Origin: a virus
Taxonomy: Duplodnaviria > Heunggongvirae > Uroviricota > Caudoviricetes
DNA length: 64,000 nt
Reading direction: 5' to 3' (one strand)
Virus record (IMG/VR): IMGVR_UViG_3300017989_000062
Location: 85,483 to 149,482 of that record
The position numbers and the translations under genes were made by a program. The notes below the pieces were generated by a model that was not told where the DNA came from, made no database searches, and saw nothing but the letters and a program-made list of their open reading frames with translations. How positions within the stretch are numbered: the stretch's first letter is position 1; every line of letters begins with the position of its first letter. Below, piece by piece: positions 20,916 through 42,559 of this stretch.

Positions 20916-21509
20916 ATGGATGGAGTTAGTGTTGTAGAAGAACATCCCGACTACTATGTGCTTGAAAAAGATGGAGAGCAATTTGAAGCTCTTAAAATTA
21001 AGAAAGATGTAGTACAAAAAATACAAGACGAATCAAATCGAAAGGTTGCAGAAAAACTTACTAAAGATGATATGTACCAATTACTTTCTACTCTTACAGA
21101 TATTATGAATGATATCCCAACAGTAGAGACTTTCGAATTTGTAACAAATAAGCTGGCTGATTATCTACAAGTATTGTATGATAAAGTCGGCAGACCCAAC
21201 TTGTTTCATCATCCAATTAAGAATCTTCATACTGAGTGTTACGGGAAAGCTCAAACGTTTATGAAGGAAGTGTTACAATTATACGAGACAGCCATCGAGA
21301 TTGCTGAAATGATGAAAGAAATGGGAAAGTTGTCTGAAGTAGAGACAGCTCAAATACCCTATAAAAAATATACGATTCAATTCAATGGTGAAGGTTCAAC
21401 ATACTTTACATCTGATTTGGTCCAATTATCTGAAAAGCACAGAGATGAAGGGAAAGATGTTAAACTAAGGCAACAAGCGATACATAGAACTTTTACAAAA
21501 ATCGCTTGA
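20916..21509 (+). CDS. Hypothetical protein within the E1/E2 operon
   Basis: ORF with a GGAG RBS; no recognisable motif. Confidence 0.45.
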   Translation: MDGVSVVEEHPDYYVLEKDGEQFEALKIKKDVVQKIQDESNRKVAEKLTKDDMYQLLSTLTDIMNDIPTVETFEFVTNKLADYLQVLYDKVGRPNLFHHPIKNLHTECYGKAQTFMKEVLQLYETAIEIAEMMKEMGKLSEVETAQIPYKKYTIQFNGEGSTYFTSDLVQLSEKHRDEGKDVKLRQQAIHRTFTKIA

Positions 21510-21584
21510 TTTGTGAAACAAATTTATTTATAAAGAACAAATAACAAACCTTATAGGTCTAGAGAGAAAAGATGGAGGATACCC

Positions 21585-22460
21585 GTGGAGAAAGTGGCGA
21601 TTGTAGGGTGCGGTAGTTTGGGTAGTCATTTAGCACAAAGTCTCTCAGAGCTTGACGAAGTGAAAGAACTCGTGTTGATTGATCACGATAAGGTTGAGAA
21701 GAGAAATCTCAGAAACGCGTGTTTTAGAAAAGGAGATATTGGAACATATAAAACAGAAGCAGTATGCTCGTCAATTACACAAAGAAGAGATGATATTGTG
21801 TTGACAGCTGTAAATGAGAAGTTTCTTGAAGGACAAACCCCAATACCAGAGTGTGATCTGGTTATTGATTGCAGAGATTATGTATATGATCGAAAGGGTA
21901 GCATTCATGTTCGAATGTATATGTCTTCAAGATATCTAATTGTTGATGGCCGACAAGATGTCGAGTATGCTGCAAATCATCAAGGACGTTATTTACATAA
22001 ACTCACCAAAACAGATCTTAGAGTGGCAGCATTTAGTGCTTCTACTTTAATACAAAAAGGTCTCATTTCAGATATTATCAACAAACAACTTATCCATAAA
22101 ATTGAGTTGGATTATCTCAATCGTGATATAGCACAAAGTATGGCACTTGTTAGAAGAGCGCCGGATGAAATTTTGGAATATCAAGATGGAGAAAAGAAAC
22201 TCACCAACCTTTATGAAAATCTACCTCGAATAAAAGAGATGAATCAAATGAATCCAGTCTTCATATTCGTAGGTAGTAAGGATTATCCAATCGTTAAACG
22301 AAAAATACCGGCAGGGTCAATACGAGATTCAAATGACGCAATTGCCTGCTTGATTTCCTCACTCGACTTACCTTTTGTATTTAACACTTACATAGTATCA
22401 CCTGGCTGTGATAATGGTTGTCATTACGTAGAGTTAATAGCAGAAACAGGAGCAGCATAA
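21585..22460 (+). CDS. ThiF/E1-like adenylyltransferase (E1-like subunit b; GTG start)
   Basis: 'VAIVGCGSLGSHLAQ' Rossmann and 'LIDHDKVEKRNLRNACF'. GGAGG RBS before the GTG start. Confidence 0.6.
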   Translation: MEKVAIVGCGSLGSHLAQSLSELDEVKELVLIDHDKVEKRNLRNACFRKGDIGTYKTEAVCSSITQRRDDIVLTAVNEKFLEGQTPIPECDLVIDCRDYVYDRKGSIHVRMYMSSRYLIVDGRQDVEYAANHQGRYLHKLTKTDLRVAAFSASTLIQKGLISDIINKQLIHKIELDYLNRDIAQSMALVRRAPDEILEYQDGEKKLTNLYENLPRIKEMNQMNPVFIFVGSKDYPIVKRKIPAGSIRDSNDAIACLISSLDLPFVFNTYIVSPGCDNGCHYVELIAETGAA

Positions 22461-23297: not shown

Positions 23298-25997
23298 ATG
23301 CCATGCCTTCTGGACTATGCACAATTCTGTGAAGAATTACCCGAAGTTAGATCCTCAAAAATCATGGATAAGAAACATTTTCATCCAGAGGGTTTATTTT
23401 CGGAGCAAATCTTTGGTCCTCTTAAAAACTATACGTGTCAATGCGGAACCTACCATGGAGTGTCAAAGTCTGGAGGGACATGTGGTGAATGCGGTGTTGA
23501 CATTGTAAATAGTGATGAGAGACGTCGGAGATTTGCAAAAATTATACTGCCGATAGAGGTTATGAATCCAGTATTTTATGATTTGATTGCTGATGTGGGC
23601 GGTAAAGATATTAAAGGTGCGATTGATACACTTTTGAAAAAAGAAGATGCTGTTATGTATATGGATGAAGAAGAATTTGTTGTGACAACTCAAGAGCATC
23701 TTCCTGAGAATGTGACCAAATGGGAACGTCTGGAAGCAATTAATGAACTAGTTACTGGTCTTGCAGATAAGTTATGTGTGGAGATGGATGAATGGCAGTT
23801 AATTAAAAATAATATTGACAGGTTATTCTTAAGGTCAATTATCGTTCTACCTCCAGATCTTAGACCAGCGGCAAAAGGTGTTGAAAGAAATAGCCAGGTC
23901 GTGGATAAGATTAATCGTTTCTATAATCAAATCCTAAACAAAAAAGAAACTATGGAAGCAACGCTAGTTGACGTGTTGCGAGATAAGCAACTTTTCTATA
24001 GTTACTTTAAACAATTACAAAAAGACGTCAATGATCTATACAGTCACATAGTAGAAAAAATGTCTAAGAAGGAAGGTTTGATTCGAGGAAACATTCTTGG
24101 CAAACGAATTGATTTCTCTGGTCGAGCTGTTATTATTCCTGATCCAACGATTAACCTTGATGAGTGTGTTTTGCCGTATGCAATGGTTTTAGAATTATTT
24201 AAGTTGCAAATTGCAAAGAAGTTAATTGATATAGAGAAATTCAAAACCTTGAATCAAGGAATTGATTTTGTTGATGAATGTATTGAATATCAAATACCCG
24301 TCTTGTTCAAGATTTGCCAAGAGATGGTTAAAGGTGAAGTGTGTTTGCTTAACCGTCAACCATCACTACATAGACTCAGTATGCTAGGGTTTAAGGTCCA
24401 GGTATCTCTTGATAATGTTATTAAGATTCATCCTTTAGCCTGCCCTCCATTTAACGCAGACTTTGATGGAGATCAGATGGCAGTTTATATCCCTATATCC
24501 AAGAAAACAAAAGAAGAGGTTCTTGAGAAGTTTCTTATTACAAGAAATTTTACAAACCCAGCTAATGAAAGTCTCACAACCACACCCAGTCAAGATATCA
24601 TTTTGGGTATTTATACGCTTACAAATAATGAGTTTCCACAGTTGCAGAAAACAGTTGAATTGAAGGGTTCTATGATATCAGAAGGAAGAGCATTGTTCAA
24701 TAAATGTCTTCCAGAAGATTATCCAGTTGTTGACGAAGTGGTTCGAGCAAAAGATCTAATGAAAATATTGGATCGAATTAAGCGAGAATATAGTTACCAA
24801 ATACTGGCAGTAGTCCTAGATGAAATTAAACGTCTGGGTTTTAAATATAGTACATTATATGGTTCTTCTATGTCACTACAAGCATCTCGAGTAGAAGGAG
24901 CCAATGAATTACAAAAAAGTCTGTATGTAGATGATGATATTAGGGAACAGTTAAATAAAGTTTCTAGTAATGTAACACAAAAATTTCTGGAAGATCACTT
25001 TTCATATTCCTATATGATTGAGTCTGGAGCGAGAGGTTCATGGGATCAGGTTAGACAAATAGTACTAACTCGAGGATTTATCTCTAACTTCAAAGGTCAA
25101 ATTATTCCTCATCCAATTAAACACAGTTTTCTTAACGGGTTGACTCAGAAAGAGTTCTTTGATTCAACTTATGGAAGTCGAAAAGGGTTGCTGGACGTTG
25201 CTCTAAATACTGGCTCGTCAGGCTATCTTTCTAGAAAACTAATCTTTGCTTGCACCAATTTGATTCTGAACACAGATGTTGAAGATTGTGGTACAACAGA
25301 TTTCTTAGAAGTCTTTGTGGCAGATAAAAAGAAAGCAAGGATGTTGATTGGGAAATGGATGAAGACTGATAACGGGTTGGTTGCAATTACAGAAGAAAAC
25401 AATCAAAGTCTTGAAGGCACAACTATACAAGTAAGAAGTCCTATTTTCTGTAAGAATCCAGGTATCTGCTGTAAGTGTTATGGGGAGTTGTATAAAACCA
25501 TAGACAGTAGATTTGTAGGAGTTATTGCTGCTCAGTCAATGGGAGAAACAAATACTCAGTTAGTTTTAAGAACCTTCCATACAAGTGGGGTTGCTGTTAT
25601 TAAGGATCTCCAAGATGAAGATATGAAGCAAATGGATATTGTAAACGATTTGTCTATAGCTTCAAAGTTACTTCATCAGTTTAAAGGTGAAACACACACA
25701 TCCTTAGTTCATAAACTTTGTGAAGTGTATAATAACAGTCGATCAATACATCATGTTCATTTTGAATGTGTGGTAGCTCAGTTAATGTGGTTTGGTTATA
25801 CAAAATGGCGATTGTTACATAACAGAGATAAATACGCACCAGAATTTCACTCTGTGCAGACTGTTCCTTCATACGAGAGTTGGTTATTGGCTCTAGCATT
25901 CTCCAACCCGAAGCGAAGTATCCTAAAGGGTATTCTCTACAGTGGTCGGTATACTGGAGTTATGGATACAATTCTGAAGGGAGGTATGGTTGTATGA
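23298..25997 (+). CDS. Multisubunit RNA polymerase beta-prime-like subunit (unsplit)
   Basis: N-terminal zinc-binding 'CQCGTY...CGECGV'. The universal catalytic motif 'NADFDGDQMAV' at about 24441-24480. Confidence 0.85.
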   Translation: MPCLLDYAQFCEELPEVRSSKIMDKKHFHPEGLFSEQIFGPLKNYTCQCGTYHGVSKSGGTCGECGVDIVNSDERRRRFAKIILPIEVMNPVFYDLIADVGGKDIKGAIDTLLKKEDAVMYMDEEEFVVTTQEHLPENVTKWERLEAINELVTGLADKLCVEMDEWQLIKNNIDRLFLRSIIVLPPDLRPAAKGVERNSQVVDKINRFYNQILNKKETMEATLVDVLRDKQLFYSYFKQLQKDVNDLYSHIVEKMSKKEGLIRGNILGKRIDFSGRAVIIPDPTINLDECVLPYAMVLELFKLQIAKKLIDIEKFKTLNQGIDFVDECIEYQIPVLFKICQEMVKGEVCLLNRQPSLHRLSMLGFKVQVSLDNVIKIHPLACPPFNADFDGDQMAVYIPISKKTKEEVLEKFLITRNFTNPANESLTTTPSQDIILGIYTLTNNEFPQLQKTVELKGSMISEGRALFNKCLPEDYPVVDEVVRAKDLMKILDRIKREYSYQILAVVLDEIKRLGFKYSTLYGSSMSLQASRVEGANELQKSLYVDDDIREQLNKVSSNVTQKFLEDHFSYSYMIESGARGSWDQVRQIVLTRGFISNFKGQIIPHPIKHSFLNGLTQKEFFDSTYGSRKGLLDVALNTGSSGYLSRKLIFACTNLILNTDVEDCGTTDFLEVFVADKKKARMLIGKWMKTDNGLVAITEENNQSLEGTTIQVRSPIFCKNPGICCKCYGELYKTIDSRFVGVIAAQSMGETNTQLVLRTFHTSGVAVIKDLQDEDMKQMDIVNDLSIASKLLHQFKGETHTSLVHKLCEVYNNSRSIHHVHFECVVAQLMWFGYTKWRLLHNRDKYAPEFHSVQTVPSYESWLLALAFSNPKRSILKGILYSGRYTGVMDTILKGGMVV

Positions 25998-26224
25998 TAA
26001 GTTATTTACATACAATGAGGCGACCAAGAAAACCAGCTATGAAACCAGGATACAATATCTGGAGTCTTAACGGGTTTTGGTATTGGTCGTATGTTTCATC
26101 AAATGGAACAATGATGGCGAAGTGTGGTGCAGGTTTAACATCCAAAGCAAACATACAGAGATCACTGAACAGATTTATCAAGCTAGTAAAAACATATTAC
26201 ACTCCAATTCATTTTCACGACTAG
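25994..26224 (+). CDS. Possible small Trp/Tyr-rich ORF between the RNAP subunit genes
   Basis: ORF 25880..26224 continues past the beta-prime stop. Only the part after the internal Met can be independent. No RBS evaluated. Confidence 0.2.
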   Translation: MISYLHTMRRPRKPAMKPGYNIWSLNGFWYWSYVSSNGTMMAKCGAGLTSKANIQRSLNRFIKLVKTYYTPIHFHD

Positions 26225-26238
26225 GGAGGAGGAACACA

Positions 26239-29200
26239 TTGAAATTTGTTAATCCGATGTTTAAACCTAAGGAAGATAACATCTTTCTTATACGACAACG
26301 GGAATTTGATGCATTAGAATCCACAATTCTTCAAATATTGCAACCAGTTGTTGATATTGGTTTTGAAATTGTGGATTTCGGCATTAAAGATCCAAAAATG
26401 GCATCAGGAGAATTACAACCAACCCTTAGAAAGAATTTAATTATCAAATTACAAAGAGGGACGTCAAACATTGATCTCTCTATGCAAATACCAGCTCTAA
26501 TTGATGACAACTATATTATCATCAATGGAAGAAAGAAAATCCCTCTGTTTCAATTATTTGATATTCCTGTTGTGACAAGGGGGAAAGCAATTAAAATTAG
26601 AACTAACGTCGCTACTATGATGTTGTTTGAGGAAAAGAATCCACCCTACGTCTATCTTAGTATATTGGGAAAAAGGGTTCCATTCTGTATGATTATGTTT
26701 GCGAAGTATGGTTATGAAGTATTAGATAGTCGATTTGATTTTGCGAATCTCGATCCATCGTTGGATACGATTTACGGAAAGCTTCTATATGATTTGAAAC
26801 TAATGTATGAAGCTGGAGAATCTACCCAAGTGGACATCTTTCGAGAAATTGGTAGAATCTACTCCAAGTATAACTTCTTGGCGAAGGGTGAAACATTACT
26901 CTATGCTCTCGACATCATGCTTGCAGTAGATCCATACTCTGCAAAATTCTTTAAGACAGATTCCGTTATTGAGGAATTTATCGACGTTATGCAGAATCCA
27001 GATTACGATGATACCGACTATCAAAATAAAAGAATCAGGTGTTTTGAGTATGCCGTAGCATCAAAGGTTTCCAAAGCTGTATTTGATTTATGTCTTGCTC
27101 ACAGAACCACAAGAAATGCCAAATTCAATGTCAACTCAACAAAAATACTGACTGAATGCAATGTGTCTGATATTGTTCAGTTCGATTTCTCTATTAATCC
27201 AATTGAAGAGTTAACCAAACTTTCAAGAACTAGTTTGGTAGGACCTGGTGGATTTAAACGAGAAAATGTTCCTGAGCATCTCAGAGATCTTAGCGACACA
27301 ATGTTTGGTCGAATGTGTCCTGTTGATACTCCTGATCGAGATAACTGCGGAGTATTGCAGAATCTTTTAGTTAACACAAAGTTTGACGAGAATCTCAGAT
27401 TTACAAATGAAACTCTTGTGGATGCACCAATCTCTATCCCAGTATCAATGGTTCCATTTCTCGAACATGATGATCAGACCAGACTGCAAATGGCTTCTTC
27501 ACAGATGAGACAAGCTGTATTGTTAAAGAAGTTTGATACACCAATGGTCCAATCTGGGTGTGAAGGATTATATACAGATCATACTCAGTTTGTAAAACTT
27601 GCTAAGAAAAATGGAGAAGTTGTTTATATCAATGACAAACATATGATCGTTGTTTATGATGACAAATCTATTGACATCTTCAACGTTGGATATCGAAAAA
27701 TCTATGTTGAAAACATGGATTTAATTAATGTATATGTCAAACAGGGAGATAAGTTCAAAGCAGGTGATATACTTGCTGAAAGCAACTATTGTACCGATGG
27801 TAGTATAAACATTGGTAAAAATTTACTTACGGGAGTTATGATCTATTATGGTCATAATTATGAGGATGGTATTGTTATCTCAGACAGGTTGGTAAATGAT
27901 GGGTCTTTTACATCAGTACATTATAGAGACTTCTCATTCACATTACCACCAGATAAGGTTCTTCTGAGTCTTGAAGAAGATTCATATAAACCTCTACCTG
28001 ATGTATTTGACAAGGTTACGATTGGTTCTACGTACGCTATTATGAAGAAGGTTCCACAGGGTCCAACAGACTTCTGTTCAATCTTTGAAGAGCCGATTGA
28101 ACTTACAACAAAAAAGTCCGTAGTAATTACTGAAGTTAACATTTACCCCAATACATGGAATGAAGGTATTCCAGAGTTTAAAGATTGGGTTGAAGCAAAA
28201 ATTGAAACTCAATTACAAAAAGAGAAAGAAATACAAGACATATTAAAGTCTCACTTACCAAAAGAAGTTGTGTCAAGATATATTAGAGACAATGGATTCG
28301 ATAAGAGTAGTTTTGTTAGAAAATACAAGGTGAAGAAAGAAAAGGTTAATGGTATACAAGTTGAGATGTATGGTATATACACTCGCAAAATACAAGTTGG
28401 AGATAAGATCGGAAATCGGCATGGTAACAAAGGTGTTATTTCAACTATAGTTCCTCATGAAATGATGCCCCAACTAGCTGATGGACGACATGTAGATATT
28501 TGCATTAACCCACTCGGAATTATCAGTCGAATGAACATTGGTCAATTATTTGAATTACATTTGAGCATGGCTTTAGATGATCTCAAGAAGAATCTTTTGA
28601 AAATGATAGAGAATAAACAAGGTCAAGCACAACTTAAATTATATTTAACTGGTTTTTACAAGGCAATTGATAATACAAAAACTGGTTGGTATACAAAACA
28701 ATATATGGAGCAAATACCCGAAGTCATTGATAAAGACTTTGTTGAGCATCTTACAGTAATACAACCGCCATTTGAATCTGTTACTGCAACCATGCTTGAA
28801 GAAGTTCTAAAGTATACAGAAACATCATTTGAACAGAAACTCTTAGATCCAGTTTCTGGACAACATTTGTTAAATACTGTCGCAGTTGGGTTCATGTACT
28901 TCTTTAGAATGGTTCATATTGCTGAGTCAAGATTAGCAGCGAGAGGGATTGGATCATATGCAAGAAGAACATTACAACCGTTAGCCGGGAGAAAAAATAA
29001 AGGTGGACAAAGACTTGGTGAAATGGAAACAGCATGTCTAATTGCTCACGATGCACCATACAATATAGCTGAATTCTTAACTACAAAATCAGACTGTATT
29101 GATATGAAAAATAGATTTCTTAGAAATACAATTGAAACTGACTTACTAAAAGATGAAAGCAATGGGGATTCAATAGTGGCTGAATCAGTTAAGTTACTTG

Positions 29201-29280
29201 AAGCCTATTTGCTTGCGATTGGAGTGCAGCCAAATGACAGACGTCAAACACAAACCGAGGATAGCGGTATACGCGGGTAG
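26239..29280 (+). CDS. Multisubunit RNA polymerase beta-like subunit (unsplit)
   Basis: 'GDKIGNRHGNKGVIS' matches bacterial beta 'GDKxAGRHGNKGVIS' (about 28408-28440). GGGAGGAGG RBS with TTG at 26239 or ATG at 26257 as possible starts; the ORF-track start at 26077 is likely too far upstream. Confidence 0.85.
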   Translation: MKFVNPMFKPKEDNIFLIRQREFDALESTILQILQPVVDIGFEIVDFGIKDPKMASGELQPTLRKNLIIKLQRGTSNIDLSMQIPALIDDNYIIINGRKKIPLFQLFDIPVVTRGKAIKIRTNVATMMLFEEKNPPYVYLSILGKRVPFCMIMFAKYGYEVLDSRFDFANLDPSLDTIYGKLLYDLKLMYEAGESTQVDIFREIGRIYSKYNFLAKGETLLYALDIMLAVDPYSAKFFKTDSVIEEFIDVMQNPDYDDTDYQNKRIRCFEYAVASKVSKAVFDLCLAHRTTRNAKFNVNSTKILTECNVSDIVQFDFSINPIEELTKLSRTSLVGPGGFKRENVPEHLRDLSDTMFGRMCPVDTPDRDNCGVLQNLLVNTKFDENLRFTNETLVDAPISIPVSMVPFLEHDDQTRLQMASSQMRQAVLLKKFDTPMVQSGCEGLYTDHTQFVKLAKKNGEVVYINDKHMIVVYDDKSIDIFNVGYRKIYVENMDLINVYVKQGDKFKAGDILAESNYCTDGSINIGKNLLTGVMIYYGHNYEDGIVISDRLVNDGSFTSVHYRDFSFTLPPDKVLLSLEEDSYKPLPDVFDKVTIGSTYAIMKKVPQGPTDFCSIFEEPIELTTKKSVVITEVNIYPNTWNEGIPEFKDWVEAKIETQLQKEKEIQDILKSHLPKEVVSRYIRDNGFDKSSFVRKYKVKKEKVNGIQVEMYGIYTRKIQVGDKIGNRHGNKGVISTIVPHEMMPQLADGRHVDICINPLGIISRMNIGQLFELHLSMALDDLKKNLLKMIENKQGQAQLKLYLTGFYKAIDNTKTGWYTKQYMEQIPEVIDKDFVEHLTVIQPPFESVTATMLEEVLKYTETSFEQKLLDPVSGQHLLNTVAVGFMYFFRMVHIAESRLAARGIGSYARRTLQPLAGRKNKGGQRLGEMETACLIAHDAPYNIAEFLTTKSDCIDMKNRFLRNTIETDLLKDESNGDSIVAESVKLLEAYLLAIGVQPNDRRQTQTEDSGIRG

Positions 29281-29845
29281 TTTTGACCCACCAACTAATG
29301 GACACCAATGGGTTATCAATCAAGGAGCACACCTGTTTGATAAACTTCTTATTGCAATCGGTATAAACCCAGAAAAGAAATCTTACTTTAGCCAGTTTGA
29401 ACGTTTGGCGATGATGAGTCAAATGGCTTCAATCTACCCAAACGTTCAAGCTGTGGTTTTAGGAAATGAGTATTTAGTTGACTTTGCAGCTTCACACAAA
29501 GCGAACTATATTCTTCGAGGGATTCGTTCTAGAACAGACTTTGCTTTTGAAAATACAATGAGACAATTTAATGGCGGGTTGAAACCATGGATAAACTCGG
29601 TGTTTCTTATCCCGCCTGCATCATTAATTAATGTAAGTTCTAGCACCATTAAAGGTTTAATCGGTCCCAAGGGTTGGCAAGAGGTTGTCAAAAAGTTCGT
29701 GCCAGAAAATGTGTTTGAAGCTATATCAAACAAACACAAGGAGAAAACAGATGTCTCAAAAGTCCGACCAATCAGTACCGACCCCCTCTTCTTCAGAGCT
29801 ACCAGACATTCAGGAGACGACACCAAAAATAAAAAGACCGATTAA
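29234..29845 (+). CDS. coaD: Phosphopantetheine adenylyltransferase (CoaD/PPAT family nucleotidyltransferase)
   Basis: 'RIAVYAGSFDPPTNGHQW' (GxFDPxTxGH) and 'ILRGIRSRTDFAFE...SVFLIPP...SSSTIKGL' are collinear with E. coli CoaD. The real C-terminus is probably near ...FEAISNK, and the ORF tail overlaps the next gene. Confidence 0.7.
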   Translation: MTDVKHKPRIAVYAGSFDPPTNGHQWVINQGAHLFDKLLIAIGINPEKKSYFSQFERLAMMSQMASIYPNVQAVVLGNEYLVDFAASHKANYILRGIRSRTDFAFENTMRQFNGGLKPWINSVFLIPPASLINVSSSTIKGLIGPKGWQEVVKKFVPENVFEAISNKHKEKTDVSKVRPISTDPLFFRATRHSGDDTKNKKTD

Positions 29846-30671
29846 ACAAGTGGGTGTTGAAAACGTTATGGTTCCTTTTGTATTGGAATCTAAATATGGT
29901 GGATTTAAATCAATGGTAGCAAACGTGTCAATGAGAACCAATCTTGATGCTGATACCAAGGGCATTTCAATGTCAAGATTGATTAGGACATTAAAGAAAT
30001 ATCTAGATCTCCCTCTCAAGAAAGAATTGATTAGGGGAATTCTTTTAGATCTGATGCATAATGTTGGGTCTACAAGAAGTTATATGAGTTTTGATTTTCA
30101 ATTACCGATTACAAGATCGTCTGCGCTGTCGGAAAATCATTTTCCAATCTTTCATAAAAGCAGATTTGAGGGACAGTTAATTCAACATGAATCTAAGGAC
30201 CCTGGTAAGGATGCATTAGAATTTCGATTCTTTCAAGGTGTTATAGTTCAATATGCAAGTTACTGTCCTTGTTCTGCGGAACTGTGTAAAGATCTCTTTG
30301 CGAAAGGAAGTGTTGGTTTTCCACATGCGCAGCGATCTTTTGCTCATATCATCACAGAAAAAGATATGATTCAAGAGAATAACTATGTATGGTTAGAGGA
30401 TATTGTGGAGTGTGTTGAGAGAGCAATTAAAACACTCCCATATCCAATAATCAAACGAGAAGACGAACAAGAGATTGCTCGTATAGCCGGAGAAAATCCT
30501 ATATTCGTTGAGGATGCGATTCGCTCTATAAGCGATCAATTAGACGCCCTGCCTGGTGTACGTGACTGGATAGTTAAGAGTATTCATGAGGAAAGTATTC
30601 ACACCTCAGAAGCGATAGCGGTCAATTACAAGGGTGTTGAGGGTGGTTTTGATTACCATTATTTCCTTTAG
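29751..30671 (+). CDS. folE2: GTP cyclohydrolase FolE2/MptA family (GCYH-IB)
   Basis: N-terminal 'DIQETTPKIKRPIKQVGVENVMVPF' resembles the FolE2 'DVQ...PI.QVGI' opening. 'YCPCSAELC' and C-terminal 'HEESIHTSEA' are present. AAGGAG RBS before MSQKSDQ. Confidence 0.6.
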   Translation: MSQKSDQSVPTPSSSELPDIQETTPKIKRPIKQVGVENVMVPFVLESKYGGFKSMVANVSMRTNLDADTKGISMSRLIRTLKKYLDLPLKKELIRGILLDLMHNVGSTRSYMSFDFQLPITRSSALSENHFPIFHKSRFEGQLIQHESKDPGKDALEFRFFQGVIVQYASYCPCSAELCKDLFAKGSVGFPHAQRSFAHIITEKDMIQENNYVWLEDIVECVERAIKTLPYPIIKREDEQEIARIAGENPIFVEDAIRSISDQLDALPGVRDWIVKSIHEESIHTSEAIAVNYKGVEGGFDYHYFL

Positions 30672-34507: not shown

Positions 34508-35248
34508 ATGAACGATAATCTAACTTCAATGATCGATCAGGCTGATCAACACTCTACTGATTTGCCAACAGAAACTGACTTGATGGTAGAGGATTCATCA
34601 ACTGTTTCTCAGCCTGCTTTAGAACGTTTCGATATTGGAGTCGCAGCATTTCCTGACTGGTTTGATGAAAACCATGTAAGATTTGCAGACATCGGGCACG
34701 TCCGTGCTTCGATTGCAGATGTAGATCCTCGTCAAGATCTGATTTTCAAGATTCCAGATCCGAAAGGGGAAACATTCGAGGATGGAAGACTGAAAAAGCG
34801 ACTTCGATTATTTGAAGATGCGAACAAGATTCCAGTGTTGAATTTGCCTGGGTCTGATATGACTGTTTACAAGAATAACAGTTTCCGAATTGTATATGAT
34901 CTTGGTGACGGCAAATTCATCAAGAGTTACGGTGTTAAGACAGGATTGATCAATGTGTTTTGTGTTTTGATTAACAATGTTTTGATTCCGTACGCCAAAG
35001 AGAAAATGAAACGAAAGAATGATGGCATTAATATTATTGAACCTAACCTAACACGAATTAATTCAAAGTTGGCTGAACAAGTTGATACAGAAGCTCTTCA
35101 GTTACATTACAAACAAATCACGAAGAGTATTGCTGAAATTTCGACTGCGCAGTCGGCTGTGAATTGGTTTCAGACCAAGGTCGGTGATGTGCAAGATGTC
35201 AATCATCTTCTACAAATTGATGACGTTATCATCATGCTTGTGAACTAG
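34508..35248 (+). CDS. Hypothetical protein
   Basis: AAAGGAG RBS before ATG (MNDNLTS). Confidence 0.45.
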   Translation: MNDNLTSMIDQADQHSTDLPTETDLMVEDSSTVSQPALERFDIGVAAFPDWFDENHVRFADIGHVRASIADVDPRQDLIFKIPDPKGETFEDGRLKKRLRLFEDANKIPVLNLPGSDMTVYKNNSFRIVYDLGDGKFIKSYGVKTGLINVFCVLINNVLIPYAKEKMKRKNDGINIIEPNLTRINSKLAEQVDTEALQLHYKQITKSIAEISTAQSAVNWFQTKVGDVQDVNHLLQIDDVIIMLVN

Positions 35249-35261
35249 GGAGGAACACGAA

Positions 35262-36032
35262 ATGGCGAATGACAAGAAGGGTGGTCTGCTCCATGAAGTA
35301 TTGGCTGTGGTTGGTAGTCTCCAAGGTGCGAAGGATAAAATCGCTGCTGAGACTGTTGTGACGTTTACTAAGAAACCAACACATTTTACCGGCCATCATC
35401 GAGAATTGAGAATGCTTGATGAAGCCCGAAAGAGTGAAGGCGGTGTCGACCAGCATGTTGAGATGGTCACAACGGTCATGGAAAAACTCAACTATATGAC
35501 CGGCGCCTTTATCAAATTCTGGGATGCCAAGTTTCAAAAAGAACTAGGTGCACAGGAAGCGAAAGCAGACATTGAGGTGGATGGTGTAGTTTTGGTTCAG
35601 GGTGTTCCAGTGTATTTTCTCCTTGAGATGGAGAAGGAACTCGGTGCCTTGAGATCAATCTATGAATCCATTCCAACTCTTGCGCCTGGTGCTAAATGGG
35701 ATCGAGCTCCTGACAGAGGAGATGGTGTGTGGGAATCCATGCATGTGGTTGAAGATGACAAAACGGAAAAGGTGTTCAAAAGTAATGTTATCGTTCCGGC
35801 TACCGACCATCATCCAGCTCAGATTCGGGAGTGGACTGAGAATGTGGTGGTAGGAAAATATGCCCTTGATCGATGGAGTGGCTGTCTTAGTCCTGCTGAG
35901 AAGTCAGTCATTATCGGAAGAGTGGACAAACTACGACGTGCCGTGAAGCGTGCTCGACAGAGAGCAAACACCCAGGAAGTTCCGAAGGCAAAAATGGGTA
36001 AAGCTCTTTTCGAATACATTCACACAACATAA
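35262..36032 (+). CDS. Hypothetical protein
   Basis: GGGAGG RBS before MANDKKGG. Confidence 0.45.
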   Translation: MANDKKGGLLHEVLAVVGSLQGAKDKIAAETVVTFTKKPTHFTGHHRELRMLDEARKSEGGVDQHVEMVTTVMEKLNYMTGAFIKFWDAKFQKELGAQEAKADIEVDGVVLVQGVPVYFLLEMEKELGALRSIYESIPTLAPGAKWDRAPDRGDGVWESMHVVEDDKTEKVFKSNVIVPATDHHPAQIREWTENVVVGKYALDRWSGCLSPAEKSVIIGRVDKLRRAVKRARQRANTQEVPKAKMGKALFEYIHTT

Positions 36033-36044
36033 GATCTGGTTAAG

Positions 36045-36062
36045 CTTATACTTATACTTATA
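36045..36062. repeat. Tandem hexamer (CTTATA)x3
   Basis: 'cttatacttatacttata' lies directly after the stop of the upstream gene. Confidence 0.6.
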
Positions 36063-36227
36063 CTTGCTTGGTCGAAGACAATATGTCCCGTAGAAGCCGG
36101 CTCTATAAATGAATAAGACCGGTGGAGGGAATCATCTTTGGCCGCTTCATACTCGACCTTATTGACCAGACAAGCTCATACTCGTAGAACATATTTACTA
36201 CTTGGTAATTAACTCGAATTCTATCTC

Positions 36228-36334
36228 AGGTCGAAGGTTCAAATCCTTCCTGGGCGTCCATAATGTAATTTCATTAGAAGTTATATTATGACCGCCCAGT
36301 AGCTCAGTGGAAGAGCAGAGTAGGTGTCATACTG
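36228..36334 (+). ncRNA. tRNA-like element in permuted order (3' half upstream of 5' half)
   Basis: 36228-36260 reads AGGTC + T-arm GAAGG-TTCAAAT-CCTTC + acceptor 3' strand CTGGGCG + T + CCA. 36293-36334 reads acceptor 5' strand CGCCCAG, which has 7/7 complementarity to the upstream 3' strand, followed by TA, D-arm GCTC-AGTGGAA-GAGC and a possible anticodon-arm-like hairpin. The two pieces are separated by a 32-nt spacer. Confidence 0.35.
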
Positions 36335-36421
36335 AAGTTAATTGCTCGAGGAAAGATATGGGTCTAAACTTTCTATAGATGTTGTTACTAACAATAACAA
36401 TAATATGATAAAGTAGACTTG

Positions 36422-36454
36422 GGGGAGATGTGGCAGGATAGTCTACATCTCCCC
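36422..36454 (+). other. Perfect 10-bp GC-rich hairpin (GGGGAGATGT / ACATCTCCCC) with a 13-nt loop
   Basis: Read directly from the sequence. Confidence 0.6.
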
Positions 36455-36477
36455 TTACTTATTAATAATAAACTAAC

Positions 36478-36508
36478 GGGGGTAGAAGAAATATATTCTT
36501 CTACCCCC
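36478..36508 (+). other. Perfect 13-bp hairpin (GGGGGTAGAAGAA / TTCTTCTACCCCC) with an ATATA loop
   Basis: Read directly. No U-tract follows; it lies 18 nt upstream of the next gene's RBS. Confidence 0.6.
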
Positions 36509-36525
36509 AACATCCGTCGGAGGGT

Positions 36526-36960
36526 GTGATGGGAATACCAAAGGAATGGTTGAAGGAGTTCGAAGATGAAGAAAATTGCCGATACTTTTATATTGTCGGT
36601 GTGAGAATGCGAATGAACAGACAAATGGAACCCGAGTATAATTGTGATTTCGTGATTGGATATAACACAAAAGATATCATGAGAACAGAGTTAGCTCAAA
36701 TGATGTCTGCAAACAAACTTTGTCCTACATCAAGAAAGGACGCCGTAGAGGCTGTTGATTTAAGTAATCTAAACGCAACATTAAACGCCGTAAGCTTAAG
36801 AGTTAGATTCAATCCGGAAATCACAGTGCATAAATTTCACTCTGATTTTCCAATCGAAGAAGAATGGTTTGATATGTATATCAAATCCGCAAGTGTTTGT
36901 AAGGACGTGAAGCAAAAACTAATTGAATCAAAAATGAAAATATCTGGAGGACAAATATGA
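36526..36960 (+). CDS. Hypothetical protein
   Basis: GGAGGG RBS. Confidence 0.45.
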   Translation: MMGIPKEWLKEFEDEENCRYFYIVGVRMRMNRQMEPEYNCDFVIGYNTKDIMRTELAQMMSANKLCPTSRKDAVEAVDLSNLNATLNAVSLRVRFNPEITVHKFHSDFPIEEEWFDMYIKSASVCKDVKQKLIESKMKISGGQI

Positions 36961-37667
36961 AAACATTAGTAGGTTTGTTGGGGATCGTTTTATGTTGCTT
37001 GGTGTTGACTGCATGTGATGACTACTCAGAAGGTGATATGACCGCTGGTAACACATGGCCACTTATGACTGTTCAAGAAATGCAATATTACAATGCAGTT
37101 CAATCTGTGTGGGGTCAAAGTTATTTGGCAAATTTGAGATCAGCAATCCGCAATCGAACAGACAAACCAAAAGAGGACGAAATTCCATTTATCGATCTTG
37201 GACCTATTATCAAAACAACAGAAGAAATTGAAATGGTTACCAAAGATAATTGGAAGAGTGATCATATAAAGAAGGCAAACAACGCTCGGTTTAGTACTAT
37301 AGATCCTCAGTGGTATAAGTTGATTACAAAGTCAGAACCGCCTGTTTATCCAGATCCAGTGGAGGAAGAGGAATCTCTGGAGAGGGATACGGGAGACGAT
37401 GAAATAAAGAATTCCCGGATTCAGATGCCTAGGAAAGCATCTTATGAATCCCAGAACAAAAGACAAATGGATCTAACTGACTTTGTTTCTGCTGATGTCT
37501 ATGATGATATTAAGTTTGATATAAGGAGTTGCCCAGAAGCAAAAACCTTCTTTAATCAAATTGTTCTTAATGAAGGACGGCCACTTACAGTGGAAGATTG
37601 CAGAATAATCAGGCAGCATGTGTTATTATGTAAAGCAAAAGAAATAAGTGAATCTATGAAGGAATAG
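36957..37667 (+). CDS. Lipoprotein (signal peptide plus lipobox)
   Basis: 'MKTLVGLLGIVLCCLVLTAC|DD' with the L-T-A-C lipobox. Confidence 0.55.
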   Translation: MKTLVGLLGIVLCCLVLTACDDYSEGDMTAGNTWPLMTVQEMQYYNAVQSVWGQSYLANLRSAIRNRTDKPKEDEIPFIDLGPIIKTTEEIEMVTKDNWKSDHIKKANNARFSTIDPQWYKLITKSEPPVYPDPVEEEESLERDTGDDEIKNSRIQMPRKASYESQNKRQMDLTDFVSADVYDDIKFDIRSCPEAKTFFNQIVLNEGRPLTVEDCRIIRQHVLLCKAKEISESMKE

Positions 37668-37670
37668 GTA

Positions 37671-38393
37671 ATGGAAATTAACAAGTCTTGTAAGTTACTC
37701 CTGAAAGATGTGTATCTTTATGATATATCAGCATGTCATTACCAGATCATTCAAAGACTTGGTTTTGACTTAACTCACATTGATAAAGAAGACAAGTTAA
37801 AAAGAAATACACAAATCGGAATAATGATGCGAGACGATCCTCGCCTGACCAGTATTATTCGTGGAATTACAAACTCAACAATCGGAGACTTTCTCACCAA
37901 AAACCATGTCAAAGAAGAGGAGTTAATATTACGTCAGTATGATGGTGTGATTACAACGAAACTTCTGCGAGAGACCAGCCAAAATATTCCGCTCGACCTC
38001 AGAGCATGTTTCGAAGCAATGTTAATTTCTTCAGATAGGAAAACCTACATCGCGATCTATAACAGAAATGTAATGATCAAAGGAATTCCATATCGTTATC
38101 CAGCGATGGATGCGATGTTTGAGAAGTTGATAAAGGTTTGTAATTCAAAGAAGTATAAAATCTTTACAACATTGCAGGAGATTAGAGACGAAATCATTAC
38201 ATCTGAAAATCCGTACTTATATGCAATACCAGTTGCGAATAATATGTGTAATGTATTTTTGAAATACTTTGGTCAAACGCAAATCTCAAAGAGTATGATT
38301 AGAATTATGGATCCTGTGGACATTGATAGAGAACGGTATTATGATTTTTACATTCGACCATTTGCAGAAAGCTTGGTTATGGAATTCGCGTAG
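37671..38393 (+). CDS. Hypothetical protein
   Basis: ORF. Confidence 0.4.
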   Translation: MEINKSCKLLLKDVYLYDISACHYQIIQRLGFDLTHIDKEDKLKRNTQIGIMMRDDPRLTSIIRGITNSTIGDFLTKNHVKEEELILRQYDGVITTKLLRETSQNIPLDLRACFEAMLISSDRKTYIAIYNRNVMIKGIPYRYPAMDAMFEKLIKVCNSKKYKIFTTLQEIRDEIITSENPYLYAIPVANNMCNVFLKYFGQTQISKSMIRIMDPVDIDRERYYDFYIRPFAESLVMEFA

Positions 38394-41236: not shown

Positions 41237-42559
41237 ATGGCTAAAGATAGTTACAAAAAAGATGCTCAAGAGCAAATGAGTTGGCAAGAGCAGGAAATGT
41301 TGAAGAAACGTGCCTTGATTAAGAAGTTTGCCGGCCTGGCTGTGTTGGTTGTTATTGGTCTTGTTGGGTTGGTGCTGTCGCCAAAGATCTTCGATACGGT
41401 TGAAAAAGGCACATACCAGATCAAGCAGGCCGCTGTCACTGGAACAATGTCCGCGAAAATGGATCCGGGTCTTTGGTTGCAGTTGTTTGGTGATATTACC
41501 GTATGGCCTACCGCTGAGACTTTCTTCTTCACCAAGGATTCTGATGAAGGTACAGCAGCAGACCAGTCAATTGAAGTCCGATTCAATGACGGTTCTCTCT
41601 GTGATGTTTCAGGAACCCTTCGAAATATAATGCCTACAAATCCACAAGATGCAGTCAACCTCGTTACCGTTAGAGGTCATAAGACCTACTACGATGTGCA
41701 ACAAAAGTTGATTCTCCCTCATGTGAGAAACTCATTACGTTTGACGGCCAACTTGATGTCCGCCAGAGAATCTTATGCAGAGAAGAGAACCGACTTTCTA
41801 TACTGGGCGGCTGATCAGATTCAGAATGGTATCTACCAAACGGATGAAGAAACAAAGAAAATTATGGATCCGATCACCGGCGAGATGGTTACCAGGACCG
41901 TCAAGAGAATCAAGATGGGTGAAAATGGTTTACCGCTTCGACAAATGAATCCTCTGCAAGATACCGGTATACACCTGGTCAACTTTGAAATCAAAGCGTT
42001 CGAATACGCGGACAAGGTGAAAGCACAAATCGGCGCTCAGCAAGAGGCTCTCATGGCTGTTGCTACCGCACGAGCCAAAGCACAAGAAGCCGAGCAGGAC
42101 AAGTTGACCATTGAGGCTCAGGGTGAGGCAAAGGTCGCCAAAGCCAGATATTTGGAATTGGAAAAGAAAGCAACCGCAGTTGTCCAGGCCGAAAGGGACA
42201 AGGAAGTTGCTGAGACCCATGCTCAGAAGGAACTCGAAGTTGCTAAACTGGCTAAAGCAGCCGCCAAGGAAACCAAAGAGAAAGACATCCTACTCGGTCA
42301 AGGTCAAGCTGAGAAGAAACGTCTAGTTATGCAGGCTGACGGCGCCCTGAAACAGAAATTGGAAGCGTTGGTTGAGATCAACAAAAATTATGCCAATGCT
42401 TACAAAGAGAGGAAAGTTCCTCAAGTGTATATGGCCGGCGGTTCCGGTGCTAACGGAACATCAAATCCGGATGATGAATTCAGTCGATTTATGAACCTGA
42501 TGAATATTCGTAACGCCAAAGAACTGGCAATTGATATGAACATCAAAGGCCAGAAATAG
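41237..42559 (+). CDS. SPFH/band-7 (prohibitin/HflKC-like) membrane protein with a C-terminal coiled-coil
   Basis: N-terminal TM helix, central globular domain, then an Ala/Glu/Lys-rich heptad region (AQQEALMAVATARAKAQEAEQDK...). Lies in the GC-rich island. Confidence 0.5.
   Translation: MAKDSYKKDAQEQMSWQEQEMLKKRALIKKFAGLAVLVVIGLVGLVLSPKIFDTVEKGTYQIKQAAVTGTMSAKMDPGLWLQLFGDITVWPTAETFFFTKDSDEGTAADQSIEVRFNDGSLCDVSGTLRNIMPTNPQDAVNLVTVRGHKTYYDVQQKLILPHVRNSLRLTANLMSARESYAEKRTDFLYWAADQIQNGIYQTDEETKKIMDPITGEMVTRTVKRIKMGENGLPLRQMNPLQDTGIHLVNFEIKAFEYADKVKAQIGAQQEALMAVATARAKAQEAEQDKLTIEAQGEAKVAKARYLELEKKATAVVQAERDKEVAETHAQKELEVAKLAKAAAKETKEKDILLGQGQAEKKRLVMQADGALKQKLEALVEINKNYANAYKERKVPQVYMAGGSGANGTSNPDDEFSRFMNLMNIRNAKELAIDMNIKGQK

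What the first reader, a model, noticed from the sequence alone, without database searches (positions are those of the whole stretch)
36228..36334. tRNA-like halves in permuted order, with the 3' half upstream of the 5' half
36228-36260 encodes a textbook tRNA 3' portion: AGGTC variable loop, T-arm GAAGG/TTCAAAT/CCTTC, acceptor 3' strand CTGGGCG, discriminator T, and an encoded CCA. Thirty-two nucleotides downstream, 36293-36316 encodes the perfectly complementary acceptor 5' strand CGCCCAG (7 of 7 Watson-Crick pairs), then TA and a canonical D-arm GCTC-AGTGGAA-GAGC, then a hairpin GAGTA-GGTGTCA-TACTG. No conventionally ordered tRNA can be built at either location. The arrangement matches circularly permuted tRNA genes, known in a red alga and a few archaea, and the gene layout of two-piece permuted tmRNA. 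The pair 3:70 is C:G rather than G:U, so an alanine-charged tmRNA is unlikely. The candidate anticodon loop GGTGTCA is non-canonical (it lacks U33 and R37), so this may be a tRNA-like structural or regulatory RNA rather than a decoding tRNA. It lies in a 490-nt gene-free hub with other structured elements.
Basis: seen in the sequence. Interest (0 to 1): 0.65.

Follow-up and report, generated by a model that had tools for sequence, protein, structure and literature searches.

The report
Phage tRNA-mimic RNA with new partner
The "permuted tRNA halves" are real. They form one small non-coding RNA that mimics the top half of a tRNA (a YrlA/Y-RNA-like RNA), and in phages and bacteria it always sits just after an uncharacterised gene (DUF7873) instead of next to its usual partner Ro60.

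Summary
It is not a permuted decoding tRNA, a two-piece tmRNA or tRNA debris. It is a YrlA-class tRNA-like non-coding RNA, about 36201-36356 on the + strand. The order is T-arm, 7-bp acceptor-like stem and D-arm, and a long helix between the RNA's 5' and 3' flanks closes them.

- Rfam's best match is YrlA: 37.8 bits, E 1.3e-6. That is below the gathering score, but equal to the published mycobacteriophage ET08 YrlA (37.4).
- A covariance model built without the window scores it 67.2 bits, E 2.4e-16. It is the only hit in 64 kb.
- The upstream gene is DUF7873. About 72 of 80 viral loci and about 70 of 80 bacterial-genome loci that carry DUF7873 have such an RNA 100-400 nt downstream on the same strand. 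No other neighbouring gene is conserved.
- The stems covary, and so does the tertiary 15-48 pair.
- 79% of the phage copies encode N-CCA after an exact 7-bp stem.
- Cultured DUF7873 phages lack Ro60, with at most stray exceptions. Ro60 and DUF7873 are adjacent in only 3 metagenomic contigs.

Most likely this is a DUF7873-RNA particle that works like a Y RNA and may be opened by RNase P. I rate it a new variant of a known kind.

The parts
35262..36032 (+). DUF7873 gene (256 aa), the invariant upstream neighbour and proposed protein partner of the RNA
   Evidence: Pfam PF25283, E 1.5e-65. Homologues in 75 phage records, 167 viral contigs and 410 species genomes. The family holds 2473 clusters at 50% identity. 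AF2 model pLDDT 91.8, with no structural relative found.
36036..36061 (+). Spacer block CTGGTTAAGCTTATACTTATACTTAT, conserved at all 26 positions (contains CTTATA x3); candidate promoter or operator for the RNA
   Evidence: Identical in L019, whose DUF7873 is only 57% identical, inside an otherwise diverged spacer. Its function was not tested.
36201..36356 (+). The whole tRNA-like non-coding RNA (YrlA class): structured span 36201-36350 plus the tail GAAAGA
   Evidence: Rfam YrlA 36206-36347, 37.8 bits, E 1.3e-6. Model R1 36223-36324, 67.2 bits, E 2.4e-16. Minimum-energy fold z = -5.6.
36201..36227 (+). 5' strand of the closing helix: distal part 36201-36217 (CUUGGUAAUUAACUCGA) and proximal part 36220-36227 (CTA-T-CTC)
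   Evidence: Minimum-energy fold. The distal helix is recovered by RNAalifold on a plain MAFFT alignment of 30 relatives, with 5-16 double changes per pair. The proximal stem covaries with L019.
36228..36232 (+). Variable-loop equivalent AGGTC (positions 44-48; C48 pairs with G15)
   Evidence: The 15-48 Levitt pair covaries across the family: C-G 44, U-A 14, other 2.
36233..36249 (+). T-arm GAAGG / TTCAAAT / CCTTC
   Evidence: Four of the five pairs covary in 60 relatives; G53, T54, T55, C56, A58 and C61 are invariant.
36250..36260 (+). Acceptor 3' strand CTGGGCG, discriminator T, encoded CCA
   Evidence: 62 of 78 distinct phage relatives carry CCA at this position. In a scan that did not require acceptor pairing, 50 of 63 do.
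36259..36290 (+). Linker hairpin (14 bp, loop AUUA) stacked on the acceptor stem across a 2x2 internal loop
   Evidence: Minimum-energy fold. CATAAT/ATTATG is conserved in L019 while the tip differs. Linker length in the family runs from 6 to 93 nt.
36293..36299 (+). Acceptor 5' strand CGCCCAG; the predicted RNase P site is between 36292 and 36293
   Evidence: 7/7 pairs. 71 distinct acceptor sequences in the family stay paired. The cleavage is inferred from M. smegmatis YrlA (PMC4201824) and was not tested.
36300..36316 (+). U8-A9 spacer and D-arm GCTC / AGTGGAA / GAGC
   Evidence: U8, A14, G18 and G19 are invariant, and all four stem pairs covary.
36317..36350 (+). 3' strand of the closing helix: A26, GAG-TAG, internal loop GTGTCATACTGAAG, then GTTAATTGCTCGAG
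   Evidence: This replaces the 'anticodon hairpin' reading.
36422..36454 (+). Hairpin GGGGAGATGT...ACATCTCCCC followed by a T-rich tract; likely terminator of the RNA gene
   Evidence: Sequence. A hairpin with compensating changes sits at the same place in L019. The simple terminator scan does not call it.
36478..36508 (.). Second GC-rich hairpin GGGGGTAGAAGAA...TTCTTCTACCCCC
   Evidence: Called terminator-like on the minus strand only. Its role is unclear.

Best explanation
Window 36201-36356 (+) encodes a YrlA-class ('Y RNA-like') non-coding RNA.

Shown:
- A T-arm, an exact 7-bp acceptor-like stem and a D-arm are laid out in that order and fold into the elbow and acceptor half of a tRNA.
- An anticodon arm is absent. 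In its place the 5' and 3' flanks pair into a long, interrupted helix.
- The RNA forms a conserved two-part cassette with the gene just upstream, DUF7873. The cassette recurs in hundreds of phages and bacterial genomes, usually without Ro60.

Inferred:
1. The RNA is made as a stable transcript, from a promoter in the spacer or by processing of the DUF7873 message.
2. The DUF7873 protein binds it, probably on the closing helix. This gives a ribonucleoprotein that works like Ro60-Y RNA.
3. The exposed tRNA-like module docks the particle onto, or titrates, a host factor that recognises the tRNA elbow and acceptor end. Candidates are RNase P, tRNA-modifying enzymes, the CCA enzyme, and toxins or synthetases that target the acceptor end.
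4. In many family members, RNase P cuts 5' of the acceptor strand and trimming exposes the encoded CCA. The result would be a nicked, two-piece tRNA mimic. In the window copy the linker forms a 14-bp hairpin, so this step is less certain here.
For: RNA identity:
- YrlA is the best Rfam family. The match is full length (model positions 1-114), 37.8 bits, E 1.3e-6.
- The published ET08 phage YrlA scores 37.4 and Forza 52.1 with the same model.
- Model R1, which excludes the window, scores the window 67.2 bits, and scores the Ro60-linked ET08 and Forza RNAs 55.2 and 45.7.

Structure:
- 88% of cells are paired, against 60% in shuffles, and 20 of 21 pairs show double changes.
- In a scan that did not require acceptor pairing, 49 of 63 elements have 7/7 acceptor pairs, while shifted registers never do.
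- The Levitt 15-48 pair switches between G-C and A-U with no single-sided changes.
- The distal helix is found on an unfitted alignment.
- The minimum-energy fold has z = -5.6.

Cassette:
- About 72 of 80 IMG/VR DUF7873 loci have a hit of at least 45 bits downstream on the same strand.
- The same holds in annotated phages of Rhizobium, Klebsiella, Vibrio, Ralstonia, Gordonia, Arthrobacter and Rhodococcus.
- It holds again in about 70 of 80 bacterial-genome loci, including isolate chromosomes.
- No other neighbouring gene is conserved.

Independence from Ro60:
- No TROVE protein is found in the window.
- None lies within 2.5 kb in 80 genome loci.
- Cultured Ro60 phages and DUF7873 phages are almost disjoint sets. 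In Gordonia they are fully disjoint.

Link to the Ro60 neighbourhood: the two genes are adjacent in L055, L232 and L201.

Processing:
- N-CCA occurs in 62 of 78 phage copies, against about 6 of 68 Ro60-linked copies.
- M. smegmatis YrlA, which has a 7-bp stem, is cut by RNase P and receives CCA in vivo (PMC4201824).
Against: - There is no expression or binding data of any kind. The DUF7873-RNA partnership rests on synteny alone.
- DUF7873 has no recognisable fold or RNA-binding domain.
- The score is below Rfam's gathering threshold (37.8 against 69).
- No flank motif is shared by all DUF7873-linked RNAs. TGGTA and GAAAG are specific to one clade.
- The fixed-register proximal stem is paired in only 53% of cells.
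- Chromosomal copies mostly lack a full CCA. In the window, part of the CCA is base-paired inside the linker hairpin.
- Only about 80 kb of a contig of about 156 kb was inspected for Ro60.
Confidence: 0.72

Rival explanations
1. It is an ordinary Ro60-dependent Y RNA. It binds a Ro60 encoded elsewhere in this phage genome or the host's Rsr, and DUF7873 is an accessory factor or simply a frequent neighbour.
For: - The RNA core cannot be told apart by model from Ro60-linked YrlAs.
- Ro60 and DUF7873 are adjacent in three viral contigs.
- Only 64 kb plus about 15 kb of a contig of about 156 kb was seen.
- Some hosts, for example Rhizobium etli, have Rsr and YrlA (PMC4201824).
Against: - Complete Rhizobium, Klebsiella/Serratia, Ralstonia, Arthrobacter, Pseudanabaena and Gordonia phages that carry the cassette give no Ro60 hit in tblastn with two Ro60 queries. 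Those queries find 358-362 other phage records.
- 0 of 80 bacterial loci have Ro60 within 2.5 kb.
- Ro60-linked RNAs usually lie upstream of rsr, whereas these always lie downstream of DUF7873.
- The GNCGAA motif is not enriched here.
Confidence: 0.17
2. It is a self-contained protein-plus-RNA conflict module, of the type III toxin-antitoxin kind or a decoy. The tRNA-like RNA would neutralise DUF7873, be its substrate, or soak up a host toxin that attacks tRNA acceptor ends.
For: - The two-component cassette has no other conserved neighbour.
- It is scattered across unrelated phages and chromosomes and is often embedded in tRNA arrays.
- The encoded CCA end is the target of several known tRNA-modifying toxins (general knowledge, not tested here).
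Against: - There is no match to PADLOC defence models.
- DUF7873 shows no nuclease or transferase fold.
- The RNA is a single or double copy, not the repeat array typical of type III antitoxins.
Confidence: 0.07
3. It is a cis-acting 3' element of the DUF7873 message: a tRNA-like RNase P punctuation or stabilising structure, not a trans-acting RNA.
For: It always lies on the same strand, 100-400 nt after the stop codon. tRNA-like shapes are RNase P substrates (PMC4201824).
Against: - A mere cleavage signal would not need a preserved L-shape core (the Levitt pair and all the elbow contacts) together with a long, covarying closing helix.
- A 26-nt conserved block between the gene and the RNA suggests a separate promoter.
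Confidence: 0.03
4. It is a true circularly permuted tRNA gene or a two-piece tmRNA. The halves would be joined or annealed to act in translation.
For: The 3' half lies upstream of the 5' half, the acceptor stem is perfect and CCA is encoded.
Against: - There is no anticodon arm. The flanks form a long interrupted helix with open ends.
- ARAGORN, which detects permuted tmRNA, finds nothing.
- Rfam's tmRNA_permuted model does not match, and beta_tmRNA matches only the T-arm region at 17.9 bits.
- Pair 3:70 is C:G here and varies across the family, as does the discriminator.
- There is no tag reading frame.
Confidence: 0.01
5. It is a chance juxtaposition of remnants from two decayed tRNA genes.
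For: - Phage tRNA arrays do give model hits of 24-41 bits across adjacent tRNAs.
- The 3' piece resembles tRNA-Pro 3' ends, 91% over 33 nt.
Against: - The score of 67.2 bits is well above that class.
- The acceptor strands are complementary in 49 of 63 unselected cases.
- The element is conserved next to DUF7873 in more than 140 loci.
- The window has no tRNA genes at all.
Confidence: 0.005

Closest known systems
YrlA, the bacterial and phage Y-RNA-like tRNA mimic (Rfam RF02553; Chen et al. 2014, PMC4201824)
   Same: - The order of modules is the same: closing helix, variable region, T-arm, acceptor-like stem-loop, D-arm, closing helix.
- The conserved T- and D-loop nucleotides are the same, and the 15-48 pair covaries in the same way.
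- It is the best Rfam hit.
- Model R1 recognises both this element and the Ro60-linked phage YrlAs.
   Different: - It is not next to Ro60. It sits downstream of DUF7873 instead.
- In the phage copies the stem is exactly 7 bp and is followed by an encoded discriminator and CCA in 79%, against about 9% of Ro60-linked copies. The linkers are also longer, 6-93 nt.
- The GNCGAAN0-1G Ro60-site motif is not clearly present: the window has CUCGAAUU.
- The score is below Rfam's gathering score.
Mycobacterium smegmatis YrlA
   Same: [quoted passage not shown] RNase P cuts it, and it ends in CCA in vivo (PMC4201824). That is exactly the maturation the encoded N-CCA suggests here.
   Different: It is bound by and encoded beside Rsr/Ro60, and its CA is added after transcription. 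Here the full CCA is in the gene and no Ro60 is nearby.
Circularly permuted tRNA genes (Cyanidioschyzon merolae and some archaea)
   Same: The 3' half is encoded upstream of the 5' half, and the acceptor strands are joined by a linker.
   Different: Those genes yield complete decoding tRNAs, with an anticodon arm, through a circular intermediate made by the splicing endonuclease (general knowledge). Here no anticodon arm exists and no such machinery is expected in a phage or bacterium.
Two-piece (permuted) tmRNA
   Same: The gene order is permuted, with the T-arm and the CCA-ended acceptor strand first.
   Different: tmRNA needs G3:U70, a tag reading frame and pseudoknots, and it lacks a canonical D-arm. 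None of this fits.

Membership tests
YrlA / bacterial Y RNA (RF02553) | T-arm-like and D-arm-like stem-loops with tRNA consensus loops, separated by an acceptor-like stem-loop | tested here: met
   G53, T54, T55, C56, A58, C61, U8, A14, G18 and G19 are invariant in 60 relatives.
YrlA / bacterial Y RNA (RF02553) | Covarying 15-48 (Levitt) tertiary pair, as reported for YrlA | tested here: met
   C-G 44, U-A 14, other 2; 0 of 500 shuffles reach this. The window has G15-C48.
YrlA / bacterial Y RNA (RF02553) | Long helix formed by the 5' and 3' ends of the RNA | tested here: met
   Minimum-energy fold. RNAalifold finds the distal helix with compensatory changes. Comparison with L019.
YrlA / bacterial Y RNA (RF02553) | GNCGAAN0-1G motif on the 5' strand (the presumed Ro60 site) | tested here: inconclusive
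   The window has CUCGAAUU at 36213-36220: the CGAA is present but the flanking Gs are absent. G.CGAA is not enriched in DUF7873-linked flanks (0.06 against 0.04 expected). It is mildly enriched in Ro60-linked flanks (0.18 against 0.08).
YrlA / bacterial Y RNA (RF02553) | Encoded within about 4 kb of a Ro60/TROVE gene on the same strand | tested here: not met
   - No TROVE protein among the window ORFs of at least 250 aa or by tblastn.
- None in about 15 kb beyond the window ends.
- 0 of 80 genome loci.
- Met only in L055, L232 and L201.
YrlA / bacterial Y RNA (RF02553) | Binds Ro60 | not testable with these tools
   Needs immunoprecipitation.
YrlA / bacterial Y RNA (RF02553) | Reaches the Rfam gathering score (69 bits) | tested here: not met
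   37.8 bits. The published phage YrlAs also fall short: ET08 37.4 and Forza 52.1.
Circularly permuted tRNA gene | The two halves together give a full cloverleaf with an anticodon stem and a 7-nt loop | tested here: not met
   The flanks form an interrupted helix of about 25 bp with open ends. The proposed hairpin is not conserved in L019.
Circularly permuted tRNA gene | Bulge-helix-bulge junction processed by the splicing endonuclease | not tested
   No such enzyme is expected in a phage or bacterium, and no motif search was run.
Two-piece tmRNA | Detected by ARAGORN or the Rfam tmRNA models | tested here: not met
   ARAGORN gives 0 genes. There is no tmRNA_permuted hit, and beta_tmRNA gives 17.9 bits over the T-arm region only.
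Two-piece tmRNA | G3:U70 alanine identity pair | tested here: not met
   The pair is C3:G70 in the window. Across the family, 3:70 is GC 32, CG 29, AT 7, TA 7, GT 2, TG 1.
DUF7873-linked tRNA-like RNA (group defined here) | Model R1 hit of at least 45 bits, 100-900 nt downstream of a DUF7873 gene on the same strand | tested here: met
   67.2 bits. The model hit starts 190 nt after the stop codon at 36032.
DUF7873-linked tRNA-like RNA (group defined here) | Exact 7-bp acceptor stem followed by a discriminator and CCA | tested here: met
   CTGGGCG-T-CCA paired with CGCCCAG. 62 of 78 phage members share this.

The most novel reading that the evidence does not exclude
DUF7873 is a second protein partner for tRNA-like 'Y' RNAs, unrelated to Ro60. 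The DUF7873-RNA cassette would be a widespread ribonucleoprotein system of phages and bacteria (about 2500 protein clusters). Its RNA would be opened by RNase P into a two-piece, CCA-ended tRNA mimic that engages acceptor-end enzymes: it might be charged, be modified, or act as a decoy against tRNA-targeting immunity.
Probability: 0.4. Interest if true: 0.85.

Novelty: new variant of a known kind. Interest (0 to 1): 0.62.

Why it matters
Y RNAs are defined by Ro60, and every bacterial or phage Y RNA described so far was found beside a Ro60 gene. Here the same tRNA-mimicking RNA architecture is tied to a different, uncharacterised protein family, in genomes that mostly lack Ro60.

If DUF7873 binds this RNA, several things follow:
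- tRNA-like 'Y' modules would be a general adaptor used by more than one ribonucleoprotein system.
- A large domain of unknown function would gain a testable role.
- Hundreds of unannotated 400-500-nt 'gene-free' gaps in phage genomes would gain an explanation.

The encoded CCA also gives a simple experiment: does a phage make a split tRNA mimic with a free acceptor end? That bears on how phages deal with tRNA-targeting defences.

Tried and rejected
- ARAGORN and Rfam at gathering thresholds found nothing in the window.
- Megablast of 35000-38000 against phages gave no match. Distant blastn of the element gave only 33-40-nt similarities to tRNA 3' ends, for example tRNA-Pro.
- DUF7873 function could not be assigned:
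  - PDB sequence search, nothing.
  - Foldseek against the PDB, no hit better than E 0.024 and none at E <= 0.001.
  - BFVD, nothing.
  - afdb50 was not available.
  - PHROGs, NCBIfam and PADLOC, no family.
  - hhalign against Ro60, probability 0.2%.
  - Literature search for 'DUF7873', 0 papers.
- I looked for a third conserved gene in the cassette and found none in the viral or the genomic loci.
- I looked for a universal protein-binding motif in the flanks. TGGTA and GAAAG turned out to be specific to one clade.
- A second tRNA-like copy exists in several relatives, but the window has none.
- The spacer 36033-36200 is not significantly structured, z = -1.1.
- Walking the source contig to search the rest of the genome for Ro60 covered only about 15 kb beyond the window.
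- The 2020 Y RNA review and the supplementary tables of Chen et al. were not held.
- The attP / tRNA 3'-fragment idea was dropped: no integrase is nearby and the 5' strand is present.

Full report
**Observation.**
- AGGTC lies at 36228-36232.
- The T-arm GAAGG/TTCAAAT/CCTTC lies at 36233-36249.
- CTGGGCG lies at 36250-36256, the discriminator T at 36257 and CCA at 36258-36260.
- CGCCCAG lies at 36293-36299 and pairs 7/7 with CTGGGCG.
- TA follows, then the D-arm GCTC/AGTGGAA/GAGC at 36302-36316.

All the nucleotides that build the tRNA core and elbow are present: U8, A14, G15-C48, G18G19, T54-T55-C56, A58, G53-C61, G46 and A26. ARAGORN finds no tRNA or tmRNA anywhere in the 64 kb. No Rfam family reaches its gathering score. 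The gap 36033-36525 has no credible ORF.

**What it matches.** A sensitive Rfam scan of 35900-36700 gives one meaningful hit: RF02553 YrlA ('Y RNA-like') at 36206-36347. The match is full length, 37.8 bits, E 1.3e-6, with 38 nt in the loop that closes the acceptor-like stem, where the model consensus has 3.

Chen et al. 2014 (PMC4201824) describe YrlA as follows:
- It is a Ro60-bound RNA whose effector domain mimics tRNA.
- A T-arm, an acceptor-like stem-loop and a D-arm come in that order, closed by a long helix formed by the RNA's two ends.
- It was found next to Ro60 in 254 bacteria and 22 phages.
- The M. smegmatis version has a 7-bp stem, is cut by RNase P and carries CCA in vivo.

This explains the 'permuted' order without invoking permuted tRNA genes. 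The sub-threshold score is not informative, because bona fide phage YrlAs score 37.4 (ET08) and 52.1 (Forza) with the same model.

**The window.** It comes from a large phage. It encodes topoisomerase II subunits, a helicase, an SMC-like ATPase, full-length RNA polymerase beta' and beta, FolE2, a radical SAM enzyme, a T4-type terminase and baseplate proteins. No TROVE/Ro60 protein is found among the larger ORFs or by tblastn with a validated Ro60 probe.

**The neighbour gene.** The ORF just upstream, 35262-36032, is Pfam DUF7873 (E 1.5e-65). tblastn finds it in 75 phage records. In every annotated example, the gene is followed by an unannotated gap of 400-700 nt, and it often sits inside a tRNA array.

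In Rhizobium phage RHph_Y65 that gap holds the same kind of element with a completely different acceptor stem: CTCGCCA-C-CCA ... TGGCGAG. Rfam or a simple pattern scan finds it in Klebsiella, Vibrio, Ralstonia RSL1, Gordonia, Arthrobacter and Rhodococcus phages and in a second Rhizobium phage. Several of these carry two copies in tandem.

**Scale and statistics.**
- I fetched 80 IMG/VR loci that encode DUF7873.
- A scan that required only a T-arm followed by a D-arm found 63 distinct pairs. Of these, 49 have 7/7 complementary acceptor strands, while shifted registers never reach 7. Fifty have CCA after the discriminator.
- I built a gapless seed of 60 cores that excluded the window. In it, 20 of 21 pairs show changes on both sides, and 88% of cells are paired against 60% in shuffles. 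Acceptor pairing in this seed was selected for, so one search is the fair test of that stem.
- The tertiary 15-48 pair was not selected for. It switches cleanly between G-C (44) and A-U (14).
- The resulting model R1 gives a single hit in the window: 36223-36324, 67.2 bits, E 2.4e-16.
- About 72 of the 80 viral loci have a hit of at least 45 bits downstream of DUF7873 on the same strand. Adjacent genuine tRNAs score only 24-41 bits.

**Flanks.**
- RNAalifold on a plain MAFFT alignment of 30 elements with 44-48-nt flanks recovers a 10-bp distal helix with a bulge and many compensatory changes.
- The unconstrained fold of 36192-36356 gives the full architecture at -56.2 kcal/mol, z = -5.6. The linker forms a 14-bp hairpin stacked on the acceptor stem.
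- Against the closest relative, L019, the T-stem, D-stem, proximal stem (CTA-T-CTC/GAG-TAG versus ACCTC/GAGGT) and distal helix all covary.

**Relation to Ro60.**
- Two Ro60 queries find 358-362 phage records, mostly Mycobacterium and Streptomyces phages. None is from Rhizobium, Klebsiella/Serratia, Ralstonia, Arthrobacter or Pseudanabaena.
- The 11 Gordonia Ro60 records and the 12 Gordonia DUF7873 records are different phages.
- Gordonia phages Forza and Phendrix share a similar run of tRNA genes. One has Ro60 plus a closed-hairpin YrlA; the other has DUF7873 plus two RNAs.
- DUF7873 is not homologous to Ro60 (hhalign probability 0.2%).
- The two genes do touch in three metagenomic contigs. 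In L055 a Ro60 ORF overlaps the DUF7873 start. L232 and L201 are the other two. In L232, YrlA-like hits lie upstream of Ro60 and another lies downstream of DUF7873.
- Ro60-linked RNAs have acceptor-like hairpins of variable length (5-11 bp) with small loops. Only about 6 of 68 have 7 bp plus CCA, against 62 of 78 in the DUF7873 phage set.

**Beyond phages.**
- DUF7873 has 410 relatives in species-representative bacterial and archaeal genomes. These include isolate chromosomes of Nannocystis, Actinomadura, Acrocarpospora and Streptomyces.
- About 70 of the 80 fetched loci have an R1 hit 100-400 nt downstream, often two in tandem. None has Ro60 within 2.5 kb, and no other neighbouring gene is conserved.
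- These chromosomal copies mostly close the 7-bp stem with a 6-7-nt loop that begins N-C. This resembles M. smegmatis YrlA more than a full encoded CCA.
- The protein family holds 2473 clusters at 50% identity, all about 250 aa.
- It has no NCBIfam, PADLOC or PHROG model, no solved structural relative and no paper in the searchable library.

**Interpretation.** The RNA's class is secure: it is a YrlA-type tRNA mimic.

The functional pairing with DUF7873 is an inference from very consistent synteny. I rate it likely, but it is unproven. RNase P opening of the acceptor hairpin is suggested by the exact 7-bp stem, the encoded N-CCA and the M. smegmatis precedent. It is less certain for the window copy, where part of the CCA is buried in a hairpin.

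The downstream function is unknown. Scaffold, decoy, substrate or antitoxin all remain possible.

Not resolved:
- whether Ro60 is encoded in the roughly 77 kb of this phage genome that I did not see;
- whether host Rsr binds the RNA;
- where DUF7873 binds, since the flank motifs are specific to one clade.

**Verdict.** The finding is real and ordinary in kind, because tRNA-like Y RNAs in phages were described in 2014. Its context is unreported: a Ro60-less cassette with a large uncharacterised protein family, and an unusually tRNA-faithful acceptor end. I rate it a new variant of a known kind, of moderate to high interest.

Noticed in passing
window 36036-36061 (also 36144-36152 and 36173-36181): The 26-nt block CTGGTTAAGCTTATACTTATACTTAT is identical in a relative whose DUF7873 is only 57% identical, inside an otherwise diverged spacer. 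Related TCATACTCG motifs recur twice downstream. It may be a promoter or operator, possibly for the phage's own RNA polymerase.
   Followed up: partly
window 36422-36454 and 36478-36508: Two GC-rich hairpins follow the RNA. The first is conserved with compensating changes in L019 and is followed by a T-rich tract. The scan tool calls only the second, and on the minus strand.
   Followed up: partly
L006:3862-3921, L008:3886-3965, L012:3700-3757, L036:2647-2732, L088:2557-2633, L089:2581-2723: A second permuted tRNA-like element lies next to the main one in several phages, upstream of it in the annotated ones. Its D-arm is of the tRNA-Leu type (UG GCGG AAUUGGUAG ACGC), and the discriminator is A in 6 of 6. 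That combination resembles LeuRS identity features. The window has no such copy.
   Followed up: partly
L055:60-1499; L232:3001-5709; L201:1340-5981: Ro60 (TROVE + vWA_Ro60) and DUF7873 genes are adjacent in three metagenomic viral contigs. In L232, separate tRNA-like RNAs flank each gene.
   Followed up: partly
L014:3863-4072 (Microcoleus phage My-WqHQDG): Here the DUF7873 homologue is followed by a HEARO RNA (129 bits, above the gathering score) and not by a tRNA-like element.
   Followed up: no
L007:2153-2278 (Vibrio phage K481); L008:4557-4680 (Ralstonia phage RSL1): Oversized tRNA hits or annotations of 124-126 nt near the cassette. They may be tRNA genes that carry an intron or an insertion.
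   Followed up: no
window 23298-29280, 29685-30671, 12185-13231, 19581-22460: The phage encodes full-length RNA polymerase beta' and beta subunits, FolE2 GTP cyclohydrolase, a radical SAM enzyme and two ThiF-family proteins. PTPS lies just upstream of the window. Together these suggest a 7-deazaguanine-type modification pathway.
   Followed up: no
window 41237-42559; L012:4158-5030: A Band-7/SPFH protein lies a few kb downstream of the cassette in the window, and directly after it (following one tRNA) in Rhodococcus phage NiceHouse. This may be coincidence.
   Followed up: no
L010:865-1393; L097:5947-6350: Gordonia phages Phendrix and Forza each carry a full tmRNA gene in a similar run of tRNA genes. 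They differ in having DUF7873 plus two RNAs (Phendrix) or Ro60 plus YrlA (Forza).
   Followed up: partly
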